DNA of 15,728 nucleotides. It comes from an uncultured Dehalococcoidia bacterium. GTDB taxonomy: Bacteria > Chloroflexota > Dehalococcoidia > Lucifugimonadales > UBA3495. The DNA lies in NCBI GenBank assembly GCA_950072105.1, contig CATMOE010000069.1:1-15728 (forward strand), written 5' to 3'. The position numbers and the translations under genes are program-made. The notes under the pieces are model-generated. The model did no database searches. It was given only the letters and a program-made list of their open reading frames with translations, and was not told where the DNA came from. Below, piece after piece: positions 9,531-15,728 of this stretch (within the stretch, counting starts at the first letter, position 1; each line of letters opens with the position of its first letter).

Positions 9531-9830
9531 TTAAGAGACCCGCCCACGCCATTTGGCTGGATCGCGGGCGGTGTGTAACACTCCGTATATTGTCGCCACG
9601 CCTCTGGAATATTCATAGAAGACCGCATAAGGGAAGCGGCGCACTAAGGCACGCCGATAGCTTTCATGCACCGCACCATACAATTGGGGTCTGCGGACAA
9701 TCGTTTCAATACAGGCGTCCACGCATCCCAAAAACTCCGCTCCCAAGCCAGGTCTCAAATCCTCGTACCAGGCGTATGCTTCTACCAGGTCTAGTTCTGT
9801 ATCCGGCGCTAACACTAACTCAGTGGTCAA
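9531..9830 (-). CDS. Type II TA toxin, RelE/ParE family
   Basis: DLVEAYAWYE...GLGAEF, RRALVRRFPYAVFY and VLHTARDP; overlaps the upstream antitoxin. Confidence 0.9.
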   Translation of the reverse strand: MTTELVLAPDTELDLVEAYAWYEDLRPGLGAEFLGCVDACIETIVRRPQLYGAVHESYRRALVRRFPYAVFYEYSRGVATIYGVLHTARDPAKWRGRVS

Positions 9831-10044
9831 AGCGCCTTTCGACCTTTCGTTTGACCGCTTCCCAGGTAAGTCCGGCGGCTGGATTCTTGCTTAAATTGGC
9901 CTTCCGGCGCGCTAGCTCTTCCTTTTGCCAGTCGTGGACGGGTACCCCTTCAACGCTCGTTGCAAGGTCGTCCCATAGATCCTCGACCAGTTGGAGTTTT
10001 TCTGAAGGGCTCAGATCGAAAATCGATGTGTCTCCCGTGTCCAT
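9820..10044 (-). CDS. Addiction module antitoxin component (TIGR02574-like)
   Basis: LSPSEKLQLVEDLWDDL...WQKEELARR...TWEAVK; SD GGAGG; directly upstream of the RelE/ParE toxin. Confidence 0.9.
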   Translation of the reverse strand: MDTGDTSIFDLSPSEKLQLVEDLWDDLATSVEGVPVHDWQKEELARRKANLSKNPAAGLTWEAVKRKVERRFDH

Positions 10045-10096
10045 CTAAACCTCCCTGAATCCTCTTCAAAGTCCACTAAACAGTAAAACCGACTCG

Positions 10097-11152
10097 CTAT
10101 GACGGCTGCCCCACTGCATCTATTACACCTAACTCTTCCATCATCGTAGTGATCTGCTGCCAGGTTTCCTCTTCCACGTCGATACCGTCTCTACGCCGGG
10201 TCTGCTCCGTGCGGTACTCCGGCTCGCCGGGATACATGACCTCGGAGAACCCGGCAGCAGGCGGCGAGGTTTTGACGAACTCGGCGAATTCCTTGACCTC
10301 TTTCTTGAACTCGGCCAACGGCCTGAAGTGCTCCACGTTGTACACCGTGATGAAGCAACCGTCATTGTGCCGGGCAAGGGGGTCTAGGCCGAACCCAAGG
10401 CCCGTAAGCAGGCCTGAGAAAACCTCCACCATGAAGGATAGCCCGTACCCTTTGTGGCCCTGGTCCGCGCCCACGGGCAGGATGGCTCCACCGGCCCGGT
10501 AGTCTTCAGGGTCAGTGGTGGGGTTGCCATCCTTGTCGATGATCCAACCCTCAGGCACAGGCTCCCGCCGGTTGCGGGCCAGGGCGATCTTACCGGCCGC
10601 CACGGCACTGGTGGCCATGTCCAGCAGCACCGGGCCCTCCAGGTCGCTGGGAATGCCGATGCAGATGGGGTTAGTCCCCAGCCTACGGGCCCGTCCGCCA
10701 AAGGGCGCCACCGCCTTGGGGCCGGCCCCGGAATCCGCGGTGACCATCGCGATCATTCCTTCCTGTATCGCCATGGTTGGGTAGTCTCCGAGACGCCCTA
10801 TATGGCTCTGGTAATGGACGGTGATGGAGGCCACTCCGTTCACCTTGGCCTTCTCAATGGCCATGCGCATGGCCTTTTCGGTGACCACGAATCCGAATCC
10901 CCAGTTACCGTTTATCACGGCGGTGCAGGGAGCCTCCTTTTCCACGACGAAGGGAGCGCCGGGAACGATATGCCCCTTGTTGATACGCTCCACGTACTCG
11001 GCAATATGGATGACGCCATGAGAGTCGTGGCCCACCAGATTAGCCTTGACTTGGTGGGTGGCCACCACCTCGGCCTCCTCGTGGGAAACTCCCTTGGCCC
11101 TATAGATGTGATAGGCCACCTTGTGCAGATATTCGGGCGTGAATACAGGCAT
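10097..11152 (-). CDS. Ldh_2 family (malate/L-lactate/L-sulfolactate dehydrogenase-like) oxidoreductase
   Basis: ANLVGHDSHG, HIGRLG, LGTNP, LDMATS, HKGYGL and YPGEPE; SD AAGGAGG. Confidence 0.92.
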   Translation of the reverse strand: MPVFTPEYLHKVAYHIYRAKGVSHEEAEVVATHQVKANLVGHDSHGVIHIAEYVERINKGHIVPGAPFVVEKEAPCTAVINGNWGFGFVVTEKAMRMAIEKAKVNGVASITVHYQSHIGRLGDYPTMAIQEGMIAMVTADSGAGPKAVAPFGGRARRLGTNPICIGIPSDLEGPVLLDMATSAVAAGKIALARNRREPVPEGWIIDKDGNPTTDPEDYRAGGAILPVGADQGHKGYGLSFMVEVFSGLLTGLGFGLDPLARHNDGCFITVYNVEHFRPLAEFKKEVKEFAEFVKTSPPAAGFSEVMYPGEPEYRTEQTRRRDGIDVEEETWQQITTMMEELGVIDAVGQPS

Positions 11153-11361
11153 GGGGGATACCTCCTTGCTGGATGTGGGAGATGTTAGGACTGCTCACCG
11201 CAGAGGCCACAGAAAGCGCGGGGTTATTTTTTGTTTCCGTCACCGATGCGGTTATTTGGATGGCTTATAAGTTAGGTGGTAGTCTATCGCCGGGCTGTAG
11301 GCTTGTCTACTTTGGCGTCGTGACAGCCGCCTCCGGCCTCAAGTGGCAACGCGGCGTCAAC

Positions 11362-11390
11362 TTGTTGGCCCGGTCCGCCCATGATATTCT
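11362..11390 (+). promoter_or_regulatory. Promoter of the tRNA pair
   Basis: TTGTTG-N17-TATTCT with extended TG, 11 nt before tRNA-Arg. Confidence 0.5.
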
Positions 11391-11401
11391 TACTTGTGCA
11401 A

Positions 11402-11476
11402 GCCCCTGTAGCTCAGTGGATAGAGTGCTGGCCTCCGGAGCCAGAGACGAGAGTTCGACCCTCTCCGGGGGTACCA
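11402..11476 (+). tRNA. tRNA-Arg (anticodon CCG)
   Basis: Cloverleaf: acceptor GCCCCTG/CGGGGGT, D-arm GCTC/GAGT, anticodon arm CTGGC-CTCCGGA-GCCAG, T-loop TTCGACC, encoded CCA. Confidence 0.95.
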
Positions 11477-11573
11477 TCGGACACCACTCCAAATCGCCCA
11501 TCCGTCTTTCTACACGGAAGGCAGGGTGATTTCCTCCCCAGGAGAGGACCGTTCCCATCCTGGTGATACAAGT

Positions 11574-11648
11574 CGGGGCGTGGCCCAGCGGCAGGGCGCC
11601 TGGTTTGGGACCAGGAGGTCGGCAGTTCAAATCTGCCCGCCCCGACCA
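11574..11648 (+). tRNA. tRNA-Pro (anticodon TGG)
   Basis: Acceptor CGGGGCG/CGCCCCG, anticodon arm CCTGG-TTTGGGA-CCAGG, T-loop TTCAAAT, encoded CCA. Confidence 0.95.
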
Positions 11649-11760
11649 GATATAACTCAGGCGTGAATTGGTTTCCGCTGTTTTCCACGATAAACCAACT
11701 ATTGCCGCAATTGCTGCAGCAACCGGGTGAAATAGCCCCTCGTTACATTCTTGGTAACCG

Positions 11761-11943
11761 TCATCGCTTCGCCACTTGGTCCCACCGCACCCTAAGCATT
11801 CTCTCGCCGTCCAGCACCACATGATAGCCAGCGGCATACTCGTTGGGATGGTCCACGGTCTTCTGGAACACAGCACTGTACCTAGAGCGCGATTCCAGTA
11901 GTATGCGAGCCAAAGGAGTGCTTGAAAGCGCGCAGGTGAACAT
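11761..11943 (-). CDS. Possible small hypothetical protein or gene fragment
   Basis: 60-aa ORF 30 nt downstream of, and co-directional with, the HTH gene; no recognisable motif. Confidence 0.25.
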   Translation of the reverse strand: MFTCALSSTPLARILLESRSRYSAVFQKTVDHPNEYAAGYHVVLDGERMLRVRWDQVAKR

Positions 11944-11972
11944 GGTCCAAGGGGGGAATTAGATGATGATGG

Positions 11973-12293
11973 CTATGTACGCGGGTGTGCAAGGAATCGC
12001 AACGGGTCCGTGTTTGATTCACTGACGGCAGTTTGCGCCAATAACCTATGTAATTCCCCTATTTGCCTGTCTTTCTCTTTCAGTTGATCCCGTAGGACTT
12101 CCAGCAGGGCGTTGTCGCCGTTGCCGTTGGGCCGCGAAAGATTTTGCTGATTGTCAGGGATGTCGATTAGCCAGCGGTATCCCTGCGCTGTCTTCTGTTT
12201 CGTACCTTGGATTAATCCTTTAGCTAACCGTCGTCTAACCGTTTGGGTAGATATGTGTAGGGCGTCAGAGGCTTCGTTGATTGACACTCGCAT
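11973..12293 (-). CDS. Helix-turn-helix (excisionase/MerR-like) protein with C-terminal coiled coil
   Basis: VSINEASDALHISTQTVRRRLAKGLIQG...RWLIDI (winged HTH) followed by the heptad-like LLEVLRDQLKEKDRQIGELHRLL. Confidence 0.75.
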   Translation of the reverse strand: MRVSINEASDALHISTQTVRRRLAKGLIQGTKQKTAQGYRWLIDIPDNQQNLSRPNGNGDNALLEVLRDQLKEKDRQIGELHRLLAQTAVSESNTDPLRFLAHPRT

Positions 12294-12878
12294 GGTTGCA
12301 AGTTTACCTGGTTGGGTAACCAGTCGAGTACCTGGCGGCTATGCGGTGTTTATCGGGTTTCAACCTAGTATGTCCGTGGTTAGCGCCGACAGGTAGCGGC
12401 TCTATGCGACAACATACCTCTGCCATGGCGCGCCGGTTGGAGACCCAGGTTACTCCCCCAAACCGGCATGGATTAGGCATCTTGGTGTCCTAGTGATTGG
12501 TCGTCGCCAACGTTTTGGAACTGAACCTCTGTGCTGACTGGTGATTGGGGCTAAATGCGATAATCAGGACGGACAGCCCTACACATTGAGGGATTGCCGA
12601 TGAGTGATAACAACGGCGGTAGCAGCATGGAAATGGCGCTGCCTGCCGGAGCCGCCCAAATAACCGCCAAAGAGGAACATTCCGCTTAACTTTTAGCCCT
12701 GTAAAGACTCAATCAATCAGCAGCATACCGGGAGTCCCCCACCGTTTCGCCTAACAGCAGCCCGGCTACTACTTGGATTAACGCTTCCTGACTTGTTGCT
12801 AAGGTAGCACCAAGGATTCCTGAGCTAAGCCCAACGGTTTGATTTCTACCCCCTCCGCATACATCCTAAACTTGCCCC

Positions 12879-12908
12879 TTGGAAAATCCTGCTCCCGACT
12901 GCTATGCT
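12879..12908 (+). promoter_or_regulatory. Possible promoter of the NUDIX-exonuclease unit
   Basis: TTGGAA-N18-TATGCT with extended TG; SD AGGGAGG at 12956-12962. Confidence 0.4.
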
Positions 12909-12973
12909 TTCGGCATATGCCCACTGGGCACCGGGCCTGCTGGAATTGATCCGGTAGGGAGGCATCGCCAGAC

Positions 12974-13435
12974 TTGCTGATTTATGGTGACAGGATAGGT
13001 AAACTGGGGAGAATAGTCACCGCGTGTGACGCTGTCATATTCGACTCTCCGGGGGAGAAGGTGTTGCTTACCCGCCGCACGGACAACGGCCGATGGTGTT
13101 TGCCCGGGGGAGCCATGGACCCCGGCGAAAGCGCATCCGAGTGTTGTGCCCGGGAGGTCCTGGAGGAGACTGGATTGGTTGTCACTGTCGGCAGGTTGAT
13201 CGGTGTTTACTCCACTCCACACCGGATCACCGAATACGCCGACGGGAATCGAAAACAGGCGCTAGACTTAGTTTTTGAGGCGGTGCGGATCAGCGGGGAG
13301 CTCAGTGTCTCTGATGAAACGACGAAACTCGGATACTTCTCACCAGAGCAGATGAAGTCCATGGATGTGATGGAATTGTTCCACGAGAGGGTCAATGACG
13401 CTTTCGCAAGACAGGGGCAGGCGTTCCTACGCTGA
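12974..13435 (+). CDS. NUDIX hydrolase
   Basis: Nudix box GGAMDPGESASECCAREVLEETG, LLTRRTDNGRW and LIGVYS; TTG start uncertain. Confidence 0.92.
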   Translation: MLIYGDRIGKLGRIVTACDAVIFDSPGEKVLLTRRTDNGRWCLPGGAMDPGESASECCAREVLEETGLVVTVGRLIGVYSTPHRITEYADGNRKQALDLVFEAVRISGELSVSDETTKLGYFSPEQMKSMDVMELFHERVNDAFARQGQAFLR

Positions 13436-13459
13436 TCTGGGCATAATCAGAAGAGGGGC

Positions 13460-14044
13460 TTGAACATCGTGACTACGTATAAGCCTACAAATGCCAGGTA
13501 TTGGTGCGTTACCGACTTAGAATGTACCGGCCTTGATCCCGAACGGCATGAAATCATCCAGGTTGCCCGAGTCGTGATAGACACGGTCGACGGGCAGATA
13601 ATCCCCGATCTGACGATGTCCGAGTACATCCAACCCACCCGATGGGATCAGCGCGACAACGTGGCAATGAAAGTCAACGGACTGACTCTGGGAAAGCTTC
13701 AAGCCGAGGGAATCTCGGCAAAGCTGGCGTTGGAAGACTTTGGCCGTGGTGTGAACTGGAATGAAACCGTGCTGGCCGCTTGGGGCGCGGATTTCGAGAC
13801 TAAGTTCCTCTGGGATGCATTCCGGCGGATCGACCGAATCGTGCCGTTCAACTTTAAGGTGATCGACGTACGAAGCCTGGGGCACTTTCCACGGGCTAAG
13901 CAGGGTTTCACCGAATACCTGGGTCTTGGGGAATCATGCGATTATTACAGCGTTCCCTTCGATAGCGGCAAGGCCCACGATGCCCTGTATGACGCCACCA
14001 AGACTGCGGAATTGGCCCTGGCGTTGCTGAAGTTGGACGAGTGA
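13460..14044 (+). CDS. DEDDh-family 3'-5' exonuclease (DnaQ-like)
   Basis: ExoI TDLECTGLD, ExoII region GADFETKFL and ExoIII HDALYDA; start is TTG13460 or GTG13469. Confidence 0.88.
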   Translation: MNIVTTYKPTNARYWCVTDLECTGLDPERHEIIQVARVVIDTVDGQIIPDLTMSEYIQPTRWDQRDNVAMKVNGLTLGKLQAEGISAKLALEDFGRGVNWNETVLAAWGADFETKFLWDAFRRIDRIVPFNFKVIDVRSLGHFPRAKQGFTEYLGLGESCDYYSVPFDSGKAHDALYDATKTAELALALLKLDE

Positions 14045-14375
14045 TATTCCCTTGCCTCGGCCCGACCGGCTACAGAGAAGCCAGCCCTGGACAACCAAGG
14101 GCGATAATCTTATGGTTCGGGATCAAGAGTTGGCGATTCATGTCTGCCCGTACCGGCCAGATGGAACCTCTAGGTATGGTTTGTCAGCGGCTAATCCTGT
14201 CCATCTTTGGCCAACAACCACTTATACAGGAGCCGAGAATCTCCAAAGCTACTCCCACCGGCTGCTGGGTCGCGCCGGTTCAAGGAAGAGCGCTTAGGGA
14301 GTCGACAAGGCGTGTCGGAAATAGACTAGGCCGGGGCGTGAAACAACCAAACACCAACAGCCATGAGGTATTGCC

Positions 14376-14660
14376 ATGACCACCAAGCGAAAGTCGTTCA
14401 CCTATTCTTGGGGTAGCGGGTACGTCGCCGAAGAAGCCAGGGTGGAAGGCGAGTATCACGTCCCCACGCTGCAACTACTGAAGTACACCGAAGGTGAGGC
14501 CGCCGGCAATTTGAGCGTTAGGTTCTGCCACTACGGCCACGCCGGCAACTTCCGGCGGTCGCCGCTGATGATGTCACCTGACGAAATAGACATGATGCGG
14601 GAAGCACTGCACGAGACGCCGGAGCTGCGGGAGTTGCTACGCAGGTTGGTTGGGGATTAG
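14376..14660 (+). CDS. Hypothetical protein (small beta-rich domain plus C-terminal helices)
   Basis: SD GAGG, GC3-rich codon usage and protein-like composition; family not recognised. Confidence 0.75.
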   Translation: MTTKRKSFTYSWGSGYVAEEARVEGEYHVPTLQLLKYTEGEAAGNLSVRFCHYGHAGNFRRSPLMMSPDEIDMMREALHETPELRELLRRLVGD

Positions 14661-15152
14661 GCGAGTACTCGGCGCCATCGGTAACCGGGCCGTCCTACGT
14701 CTTGGAGACGCTTAGATTTCATCCTCATTAATCTGGGTTTGAGCGATTTCTTGGAAGTTTTGAAAATCCAGTTTCCCACCATCCGCATATGCCACGGCGA
14801 TCAGCAGGTTAGGGTTCATCTTTTTCAAGACTATGTGCAGATTCCTTTGACTGGTGGGCAGGTCACAACATCCCCCTACTCTTCCCGATACCCAGCCGTT
14901 ACGACCTGCCCAGTCTACTTTTCCCAACGCGCTCATCTGCCTGCCGCCCGTGATTCATCTAGGCCTGCCATCACATCTTGAGGAGCGGATCGGCTCCCAC
15001 TACCCGGTTTCTCACCCCACGTCTCGTCGAAGGGATCCACTTTCTGGTGCTTACGTTCCAGCGGCACGGCCGATGGGCCAAGACCCTTATCTAAAGTATC
15101 CAGCGTTTGGCAGGGGTAGCTTTCCATCACACACATTATGTTAAGTTCGCTA

Positions 15153-15181
15153 TTTACTAATACCATCTTATATGGTATAAA
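15153..15181 (+). promoter_or_regulatory. Promoter with palindromic operator for the Cro/XRE-like gene
   Basis: TTTACT-N17-TATAAA (extended TG); inverted repeat ATACCAT-N5-ATGGTAT at 15160-15178. Confidence 0.65.
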
Positions 15182-15190
15182 GTCCGTTGA

Positions 15191-15409
15191 ATGAACGATG
15201 TTCAAGTATTGGTTGCCAAACTTCAAGGCAAAGGCTGGACTTTGACCGCCATTGCCGATGAATTCGAGATTAGCCGCAACGCAGTGGATTCTTGGCGGTC
15301 AGGGAAACATCAACCGCGACAGTCTCTTATTGTGAAGCGTGAACTGGAACGGCTGTTGGACCGCAGGCGAATACCTAAAAGGCGCAGGATGGTCAGAAAA
15401 TCCAGTTAG
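15191..15409 (+). CDS. Cro/XRE-like helix-turn-helix protein
   Basis: KGWTLTAIADEFEISRNAVDSWRSGKHQP matches the HTH_XRE pattern; basic C-terminal tail. Confidence 0.8.
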   Translation: MNDVQVLVAKLQGKGWTLTAIADEFEISRNAVDSWRSGKHQPRQSLIVKRELERLLDRRRIPKRRRMVRKSS

Positions 15410-15440
15410 AACCGGTAACAAGCGATCAGCAACAGTCAGA

Positions 15441-15458
15441 CATGGTGCTAGCACCATG
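15441..15458. promoter_or_regulatory. Perfect 18-bp palindrome (candidate operator)
   Basis: CATGGTGCTAGCACCATG equals its own reverse complement; lies between the HTH gene and the archaellin gene. Confidence 0.5.
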
Positions 15459-15585
15459 GTGAAAACCCGGTCCGAAGATTAGGCGACCTCTATTTTGCAA
15501 TGGCATGATGTTTGGTAATCTTAAGTTGGGTGGACGTGCGGATGCGAAAAACACACCGGATTGGTGTTCACAAGGAGGACACAGA

Positions 15586-15728
15586 ATGTTTGCCAAGACC
15601 CTCATAAGAGACCAAAGATGAATCACCGGTCTTGAAACGGCCATCGTACTAATCGCTTTCGTAGTGGTGGCTTCGGTGTTTGCTTTCGCCGTTCTGAGCA
15701 CCGGATTGCTCAGCTCGGAAAAGAGCAA
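15586..15728 (+). pseudogene. arlB: Archaellin (archaeal flagellin, ArlB/FlaB type), 5' part; in-frame TGA at codon 12; runs off the window
   Basis: SD AAGGAGG then ATG15586: [46 protein letters not shown]. This matches the archaellin N-terminal signature [KR]G/xxGxxTxIxxIAFVxVAxVxAxxxLxxG. The stop (15619-15621) may be real or a base-call error. Confidence 0.9.

What the first reader, a model, noticed from the sequence alone, without database searches (positions are those of the whole stretch)
15586..15728. Archaellin (archaeal flagellum filament) gene in a bacterial chromosome, missed by the ORF track
Seen: a strong bacterial SD, a short basic leader, then [28 protein letters not shown]. 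This is the archaellin N-terminal helix rather than the bacterial type IV pilin G/FTLIE motif. It is on the same sequence as clearly bacterial rpsO, pnp and dap genes. Known: archaella are type IV filament-derived, ATP-driven rotary motors of Archaea, and arl clusters have been reported in some Chloroflexota, including SAR202-type lineages. It is therefore rare cross-domain biology rather than wholly unprecedented. Inference: this is the first gene of an arl locus, or an orphan archaellin, continuing beyond the window.
Basis: partly seen in the sequence, partly recalled or inferred. Interest (0 to 1): 0.88.

Follow-up and report, generated by a model that had tools for sequence, protein, structure and literature searches.

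The report
Broken archaellin gene in SAR202 bacterium
This is a real gene for the filament subunit of the archaeal swimming motor in a marine bacterium of a group already known to carry such genes, but this copy is switched off by a stop codon and the genome appears to have lost the motor itself, so it is most likely a leftover.

Summary
The archaellin-like sequence is real (PF01917 over cut-off) and belongs to a SAR202/Dehalococcoidia-type bacterium; it is not a chimera. The stop is natural: unchanged in 4 of 4 sequencing runs and 6 of 6 metagenome contigs. Recoding as selenocysteine or glycine is unsupported. The gene does not start an arl operon: msrB and a probable IS element follow. It is one of 11 scattered arlB copies, 4 visibly broken. 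No ArlI, ArlJ, ArlG or prepilin peptidase was found in this 92%-complete genome. The motor cluster is cleanly deleted at a syntenic site in all three genomes of the genus. Archaella in SAR202, with scattered extra arlB copies, are published, and this scan noted SAR202 archaellins before on other DNA. Verdict: a pseudogene in a recently orphaned archaellin family. Residual interest: archaellins outliving their motor (13 of 23 arlB-positive family genomes lacked an ArlJ match).

The parts
15573..15578 (+). Shine-Dalgarno-like AGGAGG, 7 nt before the ATG
   Evidence: read from the sequence
15586..15618 (+). 11-codon class III leader MFAKTLIRDQR; as the gene stands, the only in-frame product from this ATG
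   Evidence: intact relatives P0108 and P0121 have the leader MLAK(S/N)LIRDQRG
15619..15621 (+). TGA nonsense codon at the Gly(-1) position of the prepilin-peptidase site
   Evidence: unchanged in contigs of 4 of 4 runs and in 6 of 6 metagenome contigs; Gly in 117 of 120 homologues
15618..15635 (+). out-of-frame ATG overlapping the stop (ATGA), opening only a 5-codon frame MNHRS*; a likely trap for re-initiating ribosomes
   Evidence: read from the sequence; its role is inference
15622..15728 (+). start of the mature archaellin frame (hydrophobic N-terminal helix), cut by the contig end; metagenome contigs show 194 codons in all, otherwise open
   Evidence: (TIGR02537 over cut-off)
15191..15409 (+). 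72-aa helix-turn-helix ORF, duplicated together with the archaellin at the end of contig C26 (HTH + arlB module, 74% nucleotide identity over 600 columns)
   Evidence: HTH_23 and HTH_3, below cut-off
15652..15728 (+). start of a 461-nt stretch shared between this copy and another (probably the C26 copy); cause of the assembly break
   Evidence: records 16 and 24, depth 76.5 vs 56.6 and 80.5 vs 53.1

Best explanation
A nonsense-inactivated archaellin (arlB) paralogue. SHOWN: a GGA-to-TGA-type stop at the last leader codon; otherwise a complete 194-codon ArlB frame; no motor genes beside it; no ArlI, ArlJ, ArlG or peptidase found in the assembly; the motor cluster deleted at a syntenic site. INFERRED: ribosomes loaded at the strong SD make an 11-residue peptide and stop, so no archaellin is made from this copy. 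The lineage inherited an archaellum and scattered its arlB gene into about 11 copies. It lost the motor, the type IVa pilus machine and the peptidase recently, and its orphaned subunit genes are now collecting stops and frameshifts one by one (birth-and-death decay).
For: Stop is natural and common. TGA is an ordinary stop here: it ends 561 of 2013 long frames, and the only UCA tRNA among 80 is tRNA-Sec. 4 of 11 copies broken by different lesions; relatives G001, G002 and G010 carry other lesions. Motor not found: NF058587 in 0 of 3 genus genomes against 2 full hits in G010; an HMM of 120 ArlJ proteins finds nothing in six frames with filters off; tblastn with family ArlI, ArlJ, ArlG and ArlCDE-position proteins gives no hit; no PF01478. 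Synteny: about 8.9 kb holding arlB-CDE-G-F-H-I-J in G010 is 1.0, 1.4 and 0.7 kb in G000, G001 and G002, and G001 keeps a frameshifted arlJ tail. dN/dS of arlB pairs between G000 and G001 is raised, 0.157 against 0.098 in eight neighbours (Fisher p 0.0075), but the N:S ratio equals the neighbours' at the deeper split. Alleles of the TGA copy vary at the conserved E and T of ITGLET, and the copy sits on a long branch (0.11).
Against: dN/dS 0.157 is far below 1, so arlB copies were under purifying selection for most of the G000-G001 divergence. 7 of 11 copies show no stop or frameshift in what is assembled. The rest of this frame is open and near-identical to another copy. The genome is 92% complete and 6% contaminated, and G010 has a second arl cluster whose syntenic site in G000 could not be fully closed, because several flank orthologues lie at contig ends. 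The lesions in the other copies were not checked against reads. Contigs drop rare alleles, so a minority GGA allele is not excluded.
Confidence: 0.8

Rival explanations
1. This copy is dead, but the species still builds an archaellum: a second motor cluster and a peptidase exist and were missed by assembly or binning, or are present only in some strains.
For: The MAG is 92% complete; arlB repeats break assemblies here. G010 has two clusters, and only one syntenic site is shown deleted. arlB dN/dS is low. G001's arlJ scar is 84-89% identical to intact ArlJ tails, so the loss is recent and could still be polymorphic.
Against: 3 of 3 genus genomes (85-95% complete) lack ArlI and ArlJ. PilB and PilC are missing too while many pilins remain. 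The gene next to G010's second cluster (sthA-like, label recalled) lies mid-contig in G000 with unrelated neighbours.
Confidence: 0.15
2. The orphan archaellins have a new, motor-independent job (for example uncleaved membrane-anchored surface proteins), and the TGA copy is a silent cassette exchanging sequence with an expressed copy by gene conversion.
For: The C69 and C26 copies differ by about 26% upstream but by only 2 synonymous bases after the stop in the 107 bases held, and share a 461-nt stretch in two runs. dN/dS is low. 13 of 23 arlB-positive family genomes had no ArlJ match. Pilins are kept without their machine as well.
Against: Recent loss explains the low dN/dS without a new function, and the ratio is rising in the recent interval. 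Broken copies accumulate independently. Conversion between close paralogues needs no function. Many of the 13 genomes are fragmented MAGs. No expression evidence was obtained.
Confidence: 0.1
3. The TGA is read through as selenocysteine (or glycine), giving a full-length prearchaellin.
For: The genome has SelA, SelB, SelD with an in-frame TGA, and tRNA-Sec. A hairpin of -17.9 kcal/mol follows the UGA. The stop is widespread and the rest of the frame is open.
Against: The hairpin's loop lacks the G of the bacterial SECIS consensus (rule from PMC13188914, passages). It fails a test that the genome's own selD passes and that 114 of 250 random TGA triplets also pass. The -1 residue is Gly in 117 of 120 homologues and never Cys (3 did not match the motif). 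The same downstream sequence follows GGA in the C26 copy. TGA is a normal stop, and there is no Gly or Trp UCA tRNA.
Confidence: 0.03
4. Ribosomes re-initiate at the ATC right after the stop and make a 'pre-cut' archaellin beginning at Ile+1, bypassing the missing peptidase.
For: The stop falls exactly at the cut site, and no peptidase was found in the genome.
Against: ATC is a very weak start (recalled). An ATG overlapping the stop leads into a 5-codon dead frame. GGA-to-TGA is a single-base change with no need for design. There is no assembly machine to use the product.
Confidence: 0.02
5. Assembly error or archaeal contamination at a contig end.
For: The feature lies in the last 143 bases of a contig of a MAG with 6% contamination.
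Against: Metagenome contig L032 matches window 9599-15728 at 99.8% in one piece and continues through the gene. Single records bridge 13957-15681 in run X13 and 14546-15681 in run X11 with one difference each, elsewhere. Closest named homologues of a paralogue are Dehalococcoidia, Chloroflexi and SAR202 proteins.
Confidence: 0.01

Closest known systems
SAR202 'Ca. Lucifugimonas marina' archaellum genes (Lim et al. 2023, PMC10444878; passages read)
   Same: SAR202-type host with about a dozen flaB/arlB copies, six of them scattered over the genome; no filaments were seen by microscopy.
   Different: That genome has six tandem flaB followed by flaGFHIJ and a FlaK candidate. Here no motor or peptidase was found, and this copy carries a stop.
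Chloroflexota archaellum, Litorilinea aerophila ArlB (Sivabalasarma et al. 2025, PMC12488501; first of nine parts and passages read)
   Same: Same family and class III signal peptide with mature start at Ile. The best PDB match, 9i5h 'Flagellin' (E 1.6e-24), begins at the Ile that aligns with residue 13.
   Different: There it is a complete, expressed, rotating system (243 of 3780 Chloroflexota genomes). Here it is an isolated, interrupted gene without a machine.
arl clusters of same-family genomes G010 and G008
   Same: G010's arlB proteins are up to about 79% identical to G000's over the mature part; G010's C83 cluster occupies a site whose flanks are conserved in G000. G010 also has broken arlB copies.
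   Different: They keep arlCDE-G-F-H-I-J (for G010; ArlI and ArlJ matches for G008); G000, G001 and G002 have the site deleted.
Silent pilin cassettes (Neisseria pilS; recalled, no call)
   Same: A non-expressed subunit copy near-identical to another copy, with signs of sequence exchange.
   Different: pilS copies lack promoter and 5' end and feed a functional pilus. This copy keeps its SD and leader, and no filament machine was found.

Membership tests
Archaellin (ArlB/FlaB, PF01917) | Profile match to the archaellin family | tested here: met
   PF01917 32.5 bits against cut-off 29.5; TIGR02537 26 against 20; PRK08541 E 1.7e-11 but below its cut-off; 7 of 7 PDB matches are named flagellin or archaellin
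Archaellin (ArlB/FlaB, PF01917) | Class III signal peptide: short basic leader, Gly/Ala at -1, hydrophobic helix with Glu at +5 | tested here: not met
   Leader, helix and Glu+5 are present, but the -1 codon is TGA; Gly in 10 of 10 paralogues and 117 of 120 homologues
Archaellin (ArlB/FlaB, PF01917) | Uninterrupted reading frame of about 200 codons with C-terminal globular domain | tested here: not met
   194 codons with one stop at codon 12 in 5 of 5 complete metagenome copies; the globular part aligns to 9i5h over 13-191; no fold was predicted
Functional archaellum system | ArlI ATPase | tested here: not met
   NF058587 no match in G000, G001 or G002; two full matches in G010; PF00437 none over cut-off; genomes are 85-95% complete
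Functional archaellum system | ArlJ platform protein | tested here: not met
   No match with a family-member query or a 120-sequence HMM. The PF00482 blank is weak, since most Chloroflexota ArlJ lack that annotation
Functional archaellum system | ArlH, ArlF and ArlG in a cluster with arlB | tested here: not met
   ArlG no hit; two isolated ArlF-like genes (C10, C63); ArlH-like matches are a response-regulator fusion below cut-off and a split KaiC-like gene; none beside an arlB
Functional archaellum system | Class III prepilin peptidase (PibD/ArlK/PilD) | tested here: not met
   PF01478 no match at E 0.1 in G000. Caveat: G104, which has ArlJ, also had no match, so the test can miss; PF06847 was not searched
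Functional archaellum system | Filament assembly and rotation | not testable with these tools
   uncultured organism; needs microscopy or proteomics
Bacterial selenoprotein | Sec machinery in the genome | tested here: met
   SelA, SelB, SelD and tRNA-Sec
Bacterial selenoprotein | SECIS hairpin with G in the first two loop positions, 16-37 nt after the UGA | tested here: not met
   No such hairpin within 2 kcal/mol of the minimum; selD control passes. Some SECIS elements do not fit the consensus (PMC13188914, passages)
Bacterial selenoprotein | Cys at the same position in homologues | tested here: not met
   0 of 120 have Cys; 117 have Gly, 3 unmatched
Horizontally acquired from Archaea (Chloroflexota arl clade) | Nested with Chloroflexota ArlB, sister to archaeal archaellins | tested here: inconclusive
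   The tree held only Chloroflexota-type rows; the copy groups with G000 paralogues and metagenome relatives. No archaeal rows were included; the transfer itself is taken from PMC10444878 and PMC12488501

The most novel reading that the evidence does not exclude
In this SAR202 genus, archaellins (and type IVa pilins) have outlived their motors and peptidase because they were re-used as uncleaved, membrane-anchored surface proteins. The intact copies would still be expressed and selected, and stopped copies such as this one would act as silent donors for gene conversion. That would be an archaeal motility subunit repurposed inside bacteria.
Probability: 0.1. Interest if true: 0.65.

Novelty: new member of a known kind. 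Interest (0 to 1): 0.2.

Why it matters
For the finding itself, little: archaellins in SAR202 are published and this copy is most likely dead. Two practical points remain. First, arlB (K07325/PF01917) alone is a poor marker of motility in SAR202: 13 of 23 arlB-positive genomes of this family had no ArlJ match. Second, the genus gives a datable case of a horizontally acquired archaellum being lost, with deletion scars at a conserved site and subunit genes decaying afterwards. This could test how long orphan filament genes persist and whether any were re-used. I did not find this loss described in three paper searches on the subject.

Tried and rejected
Alternative genetic code (TGA as Gly or Trp): rejected; TGA ends 561 of 2013 long frames and the only UCA tRNA is tRNA-Sec. 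Selenocysteine: tested with a positive control and a background, not supported. A motif hunt for other selenoproteins gave only 4 unconvincing candidates among those printed (4 of 147 printed) and was dropped. Expression: RNA run X14 has a contig over 15219-15728 carrying the TGA, but that run covers 24 of 30 bins of the stretch and contigs cannot show strand or level, so it is not counted as evidence of transcription. Promoter scan of 14900-15728: 0 sigma-70 sites against 0.8 expected; 2 terminator-like sites on the minus strand only. Repeat search of 11300-15728 found no convincing attachment site or terminal repeat, so an integrated island after tRNA-Pro is not shown. Linking the gene to pnp/rpsO on the full record behind L032 was not possible; linkage rests on contig C69, on L032 (9599-15728) and on overlapping run contigs from about 6400 onward. 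Polymorphism in the TGA copy (5 nonsynonymous and 3 synonymous codons outside the probably recombined 3' end of L035) is too sparse to prove neutrality. No structure prediction, complex prediction or archaeal-rooted tree was run. Tree rows left out: G000 C31, C26 and C69, G002 C119, G010 C83 (frameshifted or too short), four of six metagenome alleles, and copies the motif did not catch (G001 C48, C20). Earlier-finding look-ups by place and by words gave nothing.

Full report
OBSERVATION. The sequence reads AGGAGG (15573-15578), ATG at 15586 and [46 protein letters not shown] to the end of the window. The archaellin helix is real: PF01917 scores 32.5 bits (cut-off 29.5) for the read-through fragment and 32.7 bits for the part behind the stop alone. 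The same scan confirms dapA, asd, dapB, pnp and rpsO on the contig. The closest relatives of the PNPase are Dehalococcoidia and SAR202 MAGs at 67-73% identity. This is the -1 position of the class III signal peptide. It is Gly in 10 of 10 other copies in the genome and in 117 of 120 homologues, 3 not matching the motif. The best PDB match (9i5h, E 1.6e-24) starts at the Ile that follows it.

IS THE STOP REAL, AND IS THE CONTIG SOUND? The window is all of contig C69. I laid 4 of 23 listed runs. Records spanning the codon have 0 differences (X1, possibly the source), 1 at 15218 (X11, X13) or 1 at 15637 (X14), so all four carry the TGA. A metagenome scan with a wildcard at the first base of the codon gave 6 contigs, all with T; alleles with other changes in those 31 bases would have been missed, and contigs drop rare variants. 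L032 matches window 9599-15728 at 99.8% and runs on through the gene, so there is no chimeric joint. The break is a collapsed repeat: C26 ends at the same base of a near-identical archaellin, and a 461-nt record starting at 15652 has 1.35-1.5 times the flanking depth.

THE WHOLE GENE AND ITS NEIGHBOURS. Five of the six contigs give the full frame: 194 codons, open except for codon 12. Downstream in L031 lie a 65-aa ORF resembling the N-terminus of the protein found between arlB and arlG in G010 (13 of 28 identical, pairwise E 9e-6), msrB on the other strand and a multi-copy transposase pair (IS3-like by recall). There are no motor genes. Upstream is a 72-aa HTH ORF; HTH and arlB are duplicated together at the end of C26, 74% identical overall but differing at only two synonymous bases behind the stop.

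THE GENOME. PF01917 gives 14 matches: 11 arlB copies with the signal motif (one split in two) and two ArlF-like genes. Four of the 11 are broken: this TGA, a TAA in one C67 copy, and frameshifts in C31 and C33; two run off contig ends, and one has Glu in the hydrophobic helix. Only this lesion was checked against other assemblies. The machine was not found: no ArlI, no ArlJ with a family-member query or with an HMM of 120 relatives run without filters, no ArlG, no PF01478 peptidase. ArlH-like matches are a response-regulator fusion below cut-off and a split KaiC-like gene. Type IVa pilins remain in several places, but PilB and PilC queries find nothing. The genome is 92% complete and 6% contaminated.

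LOSS, NOT ONLY A GAP. In family member G010 a cluster arlB-CDE-G-F-H-I-J ('CDE' named by position) fills about 8.9 kb between a coxG-like gene and glmS (both labels recalled). The flanking gene order is conserved in G000, G001 and G002, where the same interval is 1.0, 1.4 and 0.7 kb inside contigs. G001 keeps a frameshifted arlJ tail, 84-89% identical over its last 43-45 residues to the best intact ArlJ proteins. G000 and G001 each keep a piece the other lost, so at least the last deletions were independent and recent. G010's second cluster could not be placed as firmly: one flank gene lies mid-contig in G000 with other neighbours, but others sit at contig ends. Across 151 family genomes at least 80% complete, 23 had arlB (E up to 1e-8), 11 had ArlJ, 10 had both and 13 had arlB only; 19 had PF01478. 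Many are fragmented MAGs and kin are not independent.

SELECTION. Five arlB pairs between G000 and G001 have dN/dS 0.08-0.23, pooled 0.157, against 0.098 for eight genes around the deleted site (Fisher p 0.0075 on rounded counts). Against the more distant G002 the N:S ratios are equal (p 1.0). Pairs were chosen by best match; the tree supports two of the five firmly and did not hold the others' partners or resolve them. This cuts both ways. The copies were constrained for most of the time since the split, which is against old decay. The excess in the recent interval fits recent relaxation after motor loss. G010, which has motors, also has broken copies, so turnover of spare arlB genes is normal in this family.

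MECHANISM. Most likely (0.8) translation from the strong SD ends after 11 residues and no archaellin comes from this copy; it is a pseudogene in an orphaned, decaying family. Recoding was tested because the genome has SelA, SelB, SelD and tRNA-Sec. The selD UGA is followed by a hairpin with a GGU loop 27 nt away; the arlB UGA fails the same rule, which 114 of 250 random TGA triplets pass (rule from PMC13188914). Re-initiation at the ATC behind the stop would give a pre-cut archaellin, but an ATG overlapping the stop leads into a five-codon dead frame and there is no machine to use the product. A missed or strain-variable motor (0.15) and re-use of motorless archaellins (0.1) remain open.

WHAT IS KNOWN. 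Lim et al. 2023 (PMC10444878; passages) report six tandem and six scattered flaB copies with flaGFHIJ in cultured SAR202, and no visible filaments. Sivabalasarma et al. 2025 (PMC12488501; first of nine parts and passages) report complete systems in 243 of 3780 Chloroflexota genomes and a working archaellum in Litorilinea. I also saw passages of 10.64898/2026.05.11.724246, PMC13705601, PMC13319060 and PMC13188914; all other papers only as search listings. No supplement was opened; the source data of PMC12488501 may list arlB-only genomes. Three searches showed no paper on motor loss with surviving arlB copies in SAR202.

VERDICT. It works like nothing at present: an archaellin-family pseudogene, not a member of a functional archaellum. 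New member of a known kind; interest 0.2, carried by the genus-level loss rather than by the gene.

Noticed in passing
G000:C35:35100-36105 (L057); G001:C15:51620-53053; G002:C22:9126-9808: Deletion scar of the arl motor cluster in three sister genomes, with different breakpoints; G001 keeps a little-decayed, frameshifted arlJ tail.
   Followed up: yes
G000 contigs C79, C22, C19, C121, C25, C40, C7, C18: Many type IVa pilin-like genes remain although PilB, PilC and a prepilin peptidase were not found; one C79 pilin looks frameshifted.
   Followed up: partly
G000:C26:47688-48230 and window 15134-15728: HTH + arlB module duplicated; upstream part diverged but coding part behind codon 12 almost identical, suggesting gene conversion. 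A 65-aa ORF like the one downstream of the window copy also lies upstream of the C26 module.
   Followed up: partly
G000:C60:2148-3071, C17:4277-5359, C10:43609-45465, C5:40412-40508: Complete selenocysteine machinery; selD has an in-frame TGA with a SECIS-like hairpin. The rest of the selenoproteome was not established.
   Followed up: partly
G000:C18:20916-22145: Response-regulator receiver domain fused to an ArlH/KaiC-like ATPase (NF004723 128 bits, below cut-off), near orphan pilin genes.
   Followed up: no
G000:C10:69500-69997 and C63:1415-2395 region: Two isolated ArlF-like genes, up to 54% identical to an ArlF-like gene in G010, far from any arlB.
   Followed up: no
window 11402-11648 and 11973-14660: tRNA-Arg and tRNA-Pro followed by a small HTH ORF, a NUDIX hydrolase, a 3'-5' exonuclease and a 94-aa unknown ORF; island-like, but no attachment repeat was found.
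   Followed up: partly
window 9531-9830: 99-aa ORF that looks like a RelE/ParE-type toxin by recall, with no Pfam match at E 0.01; a short upstream partner was not examined.
   Followed up: no
G010:C238 and G010:C83: One family member carries two arl clusters with full-length ArlI and ArlJ; the arlB of the C83 cluster is frameshifted in the assembly.
   Followed up: partly
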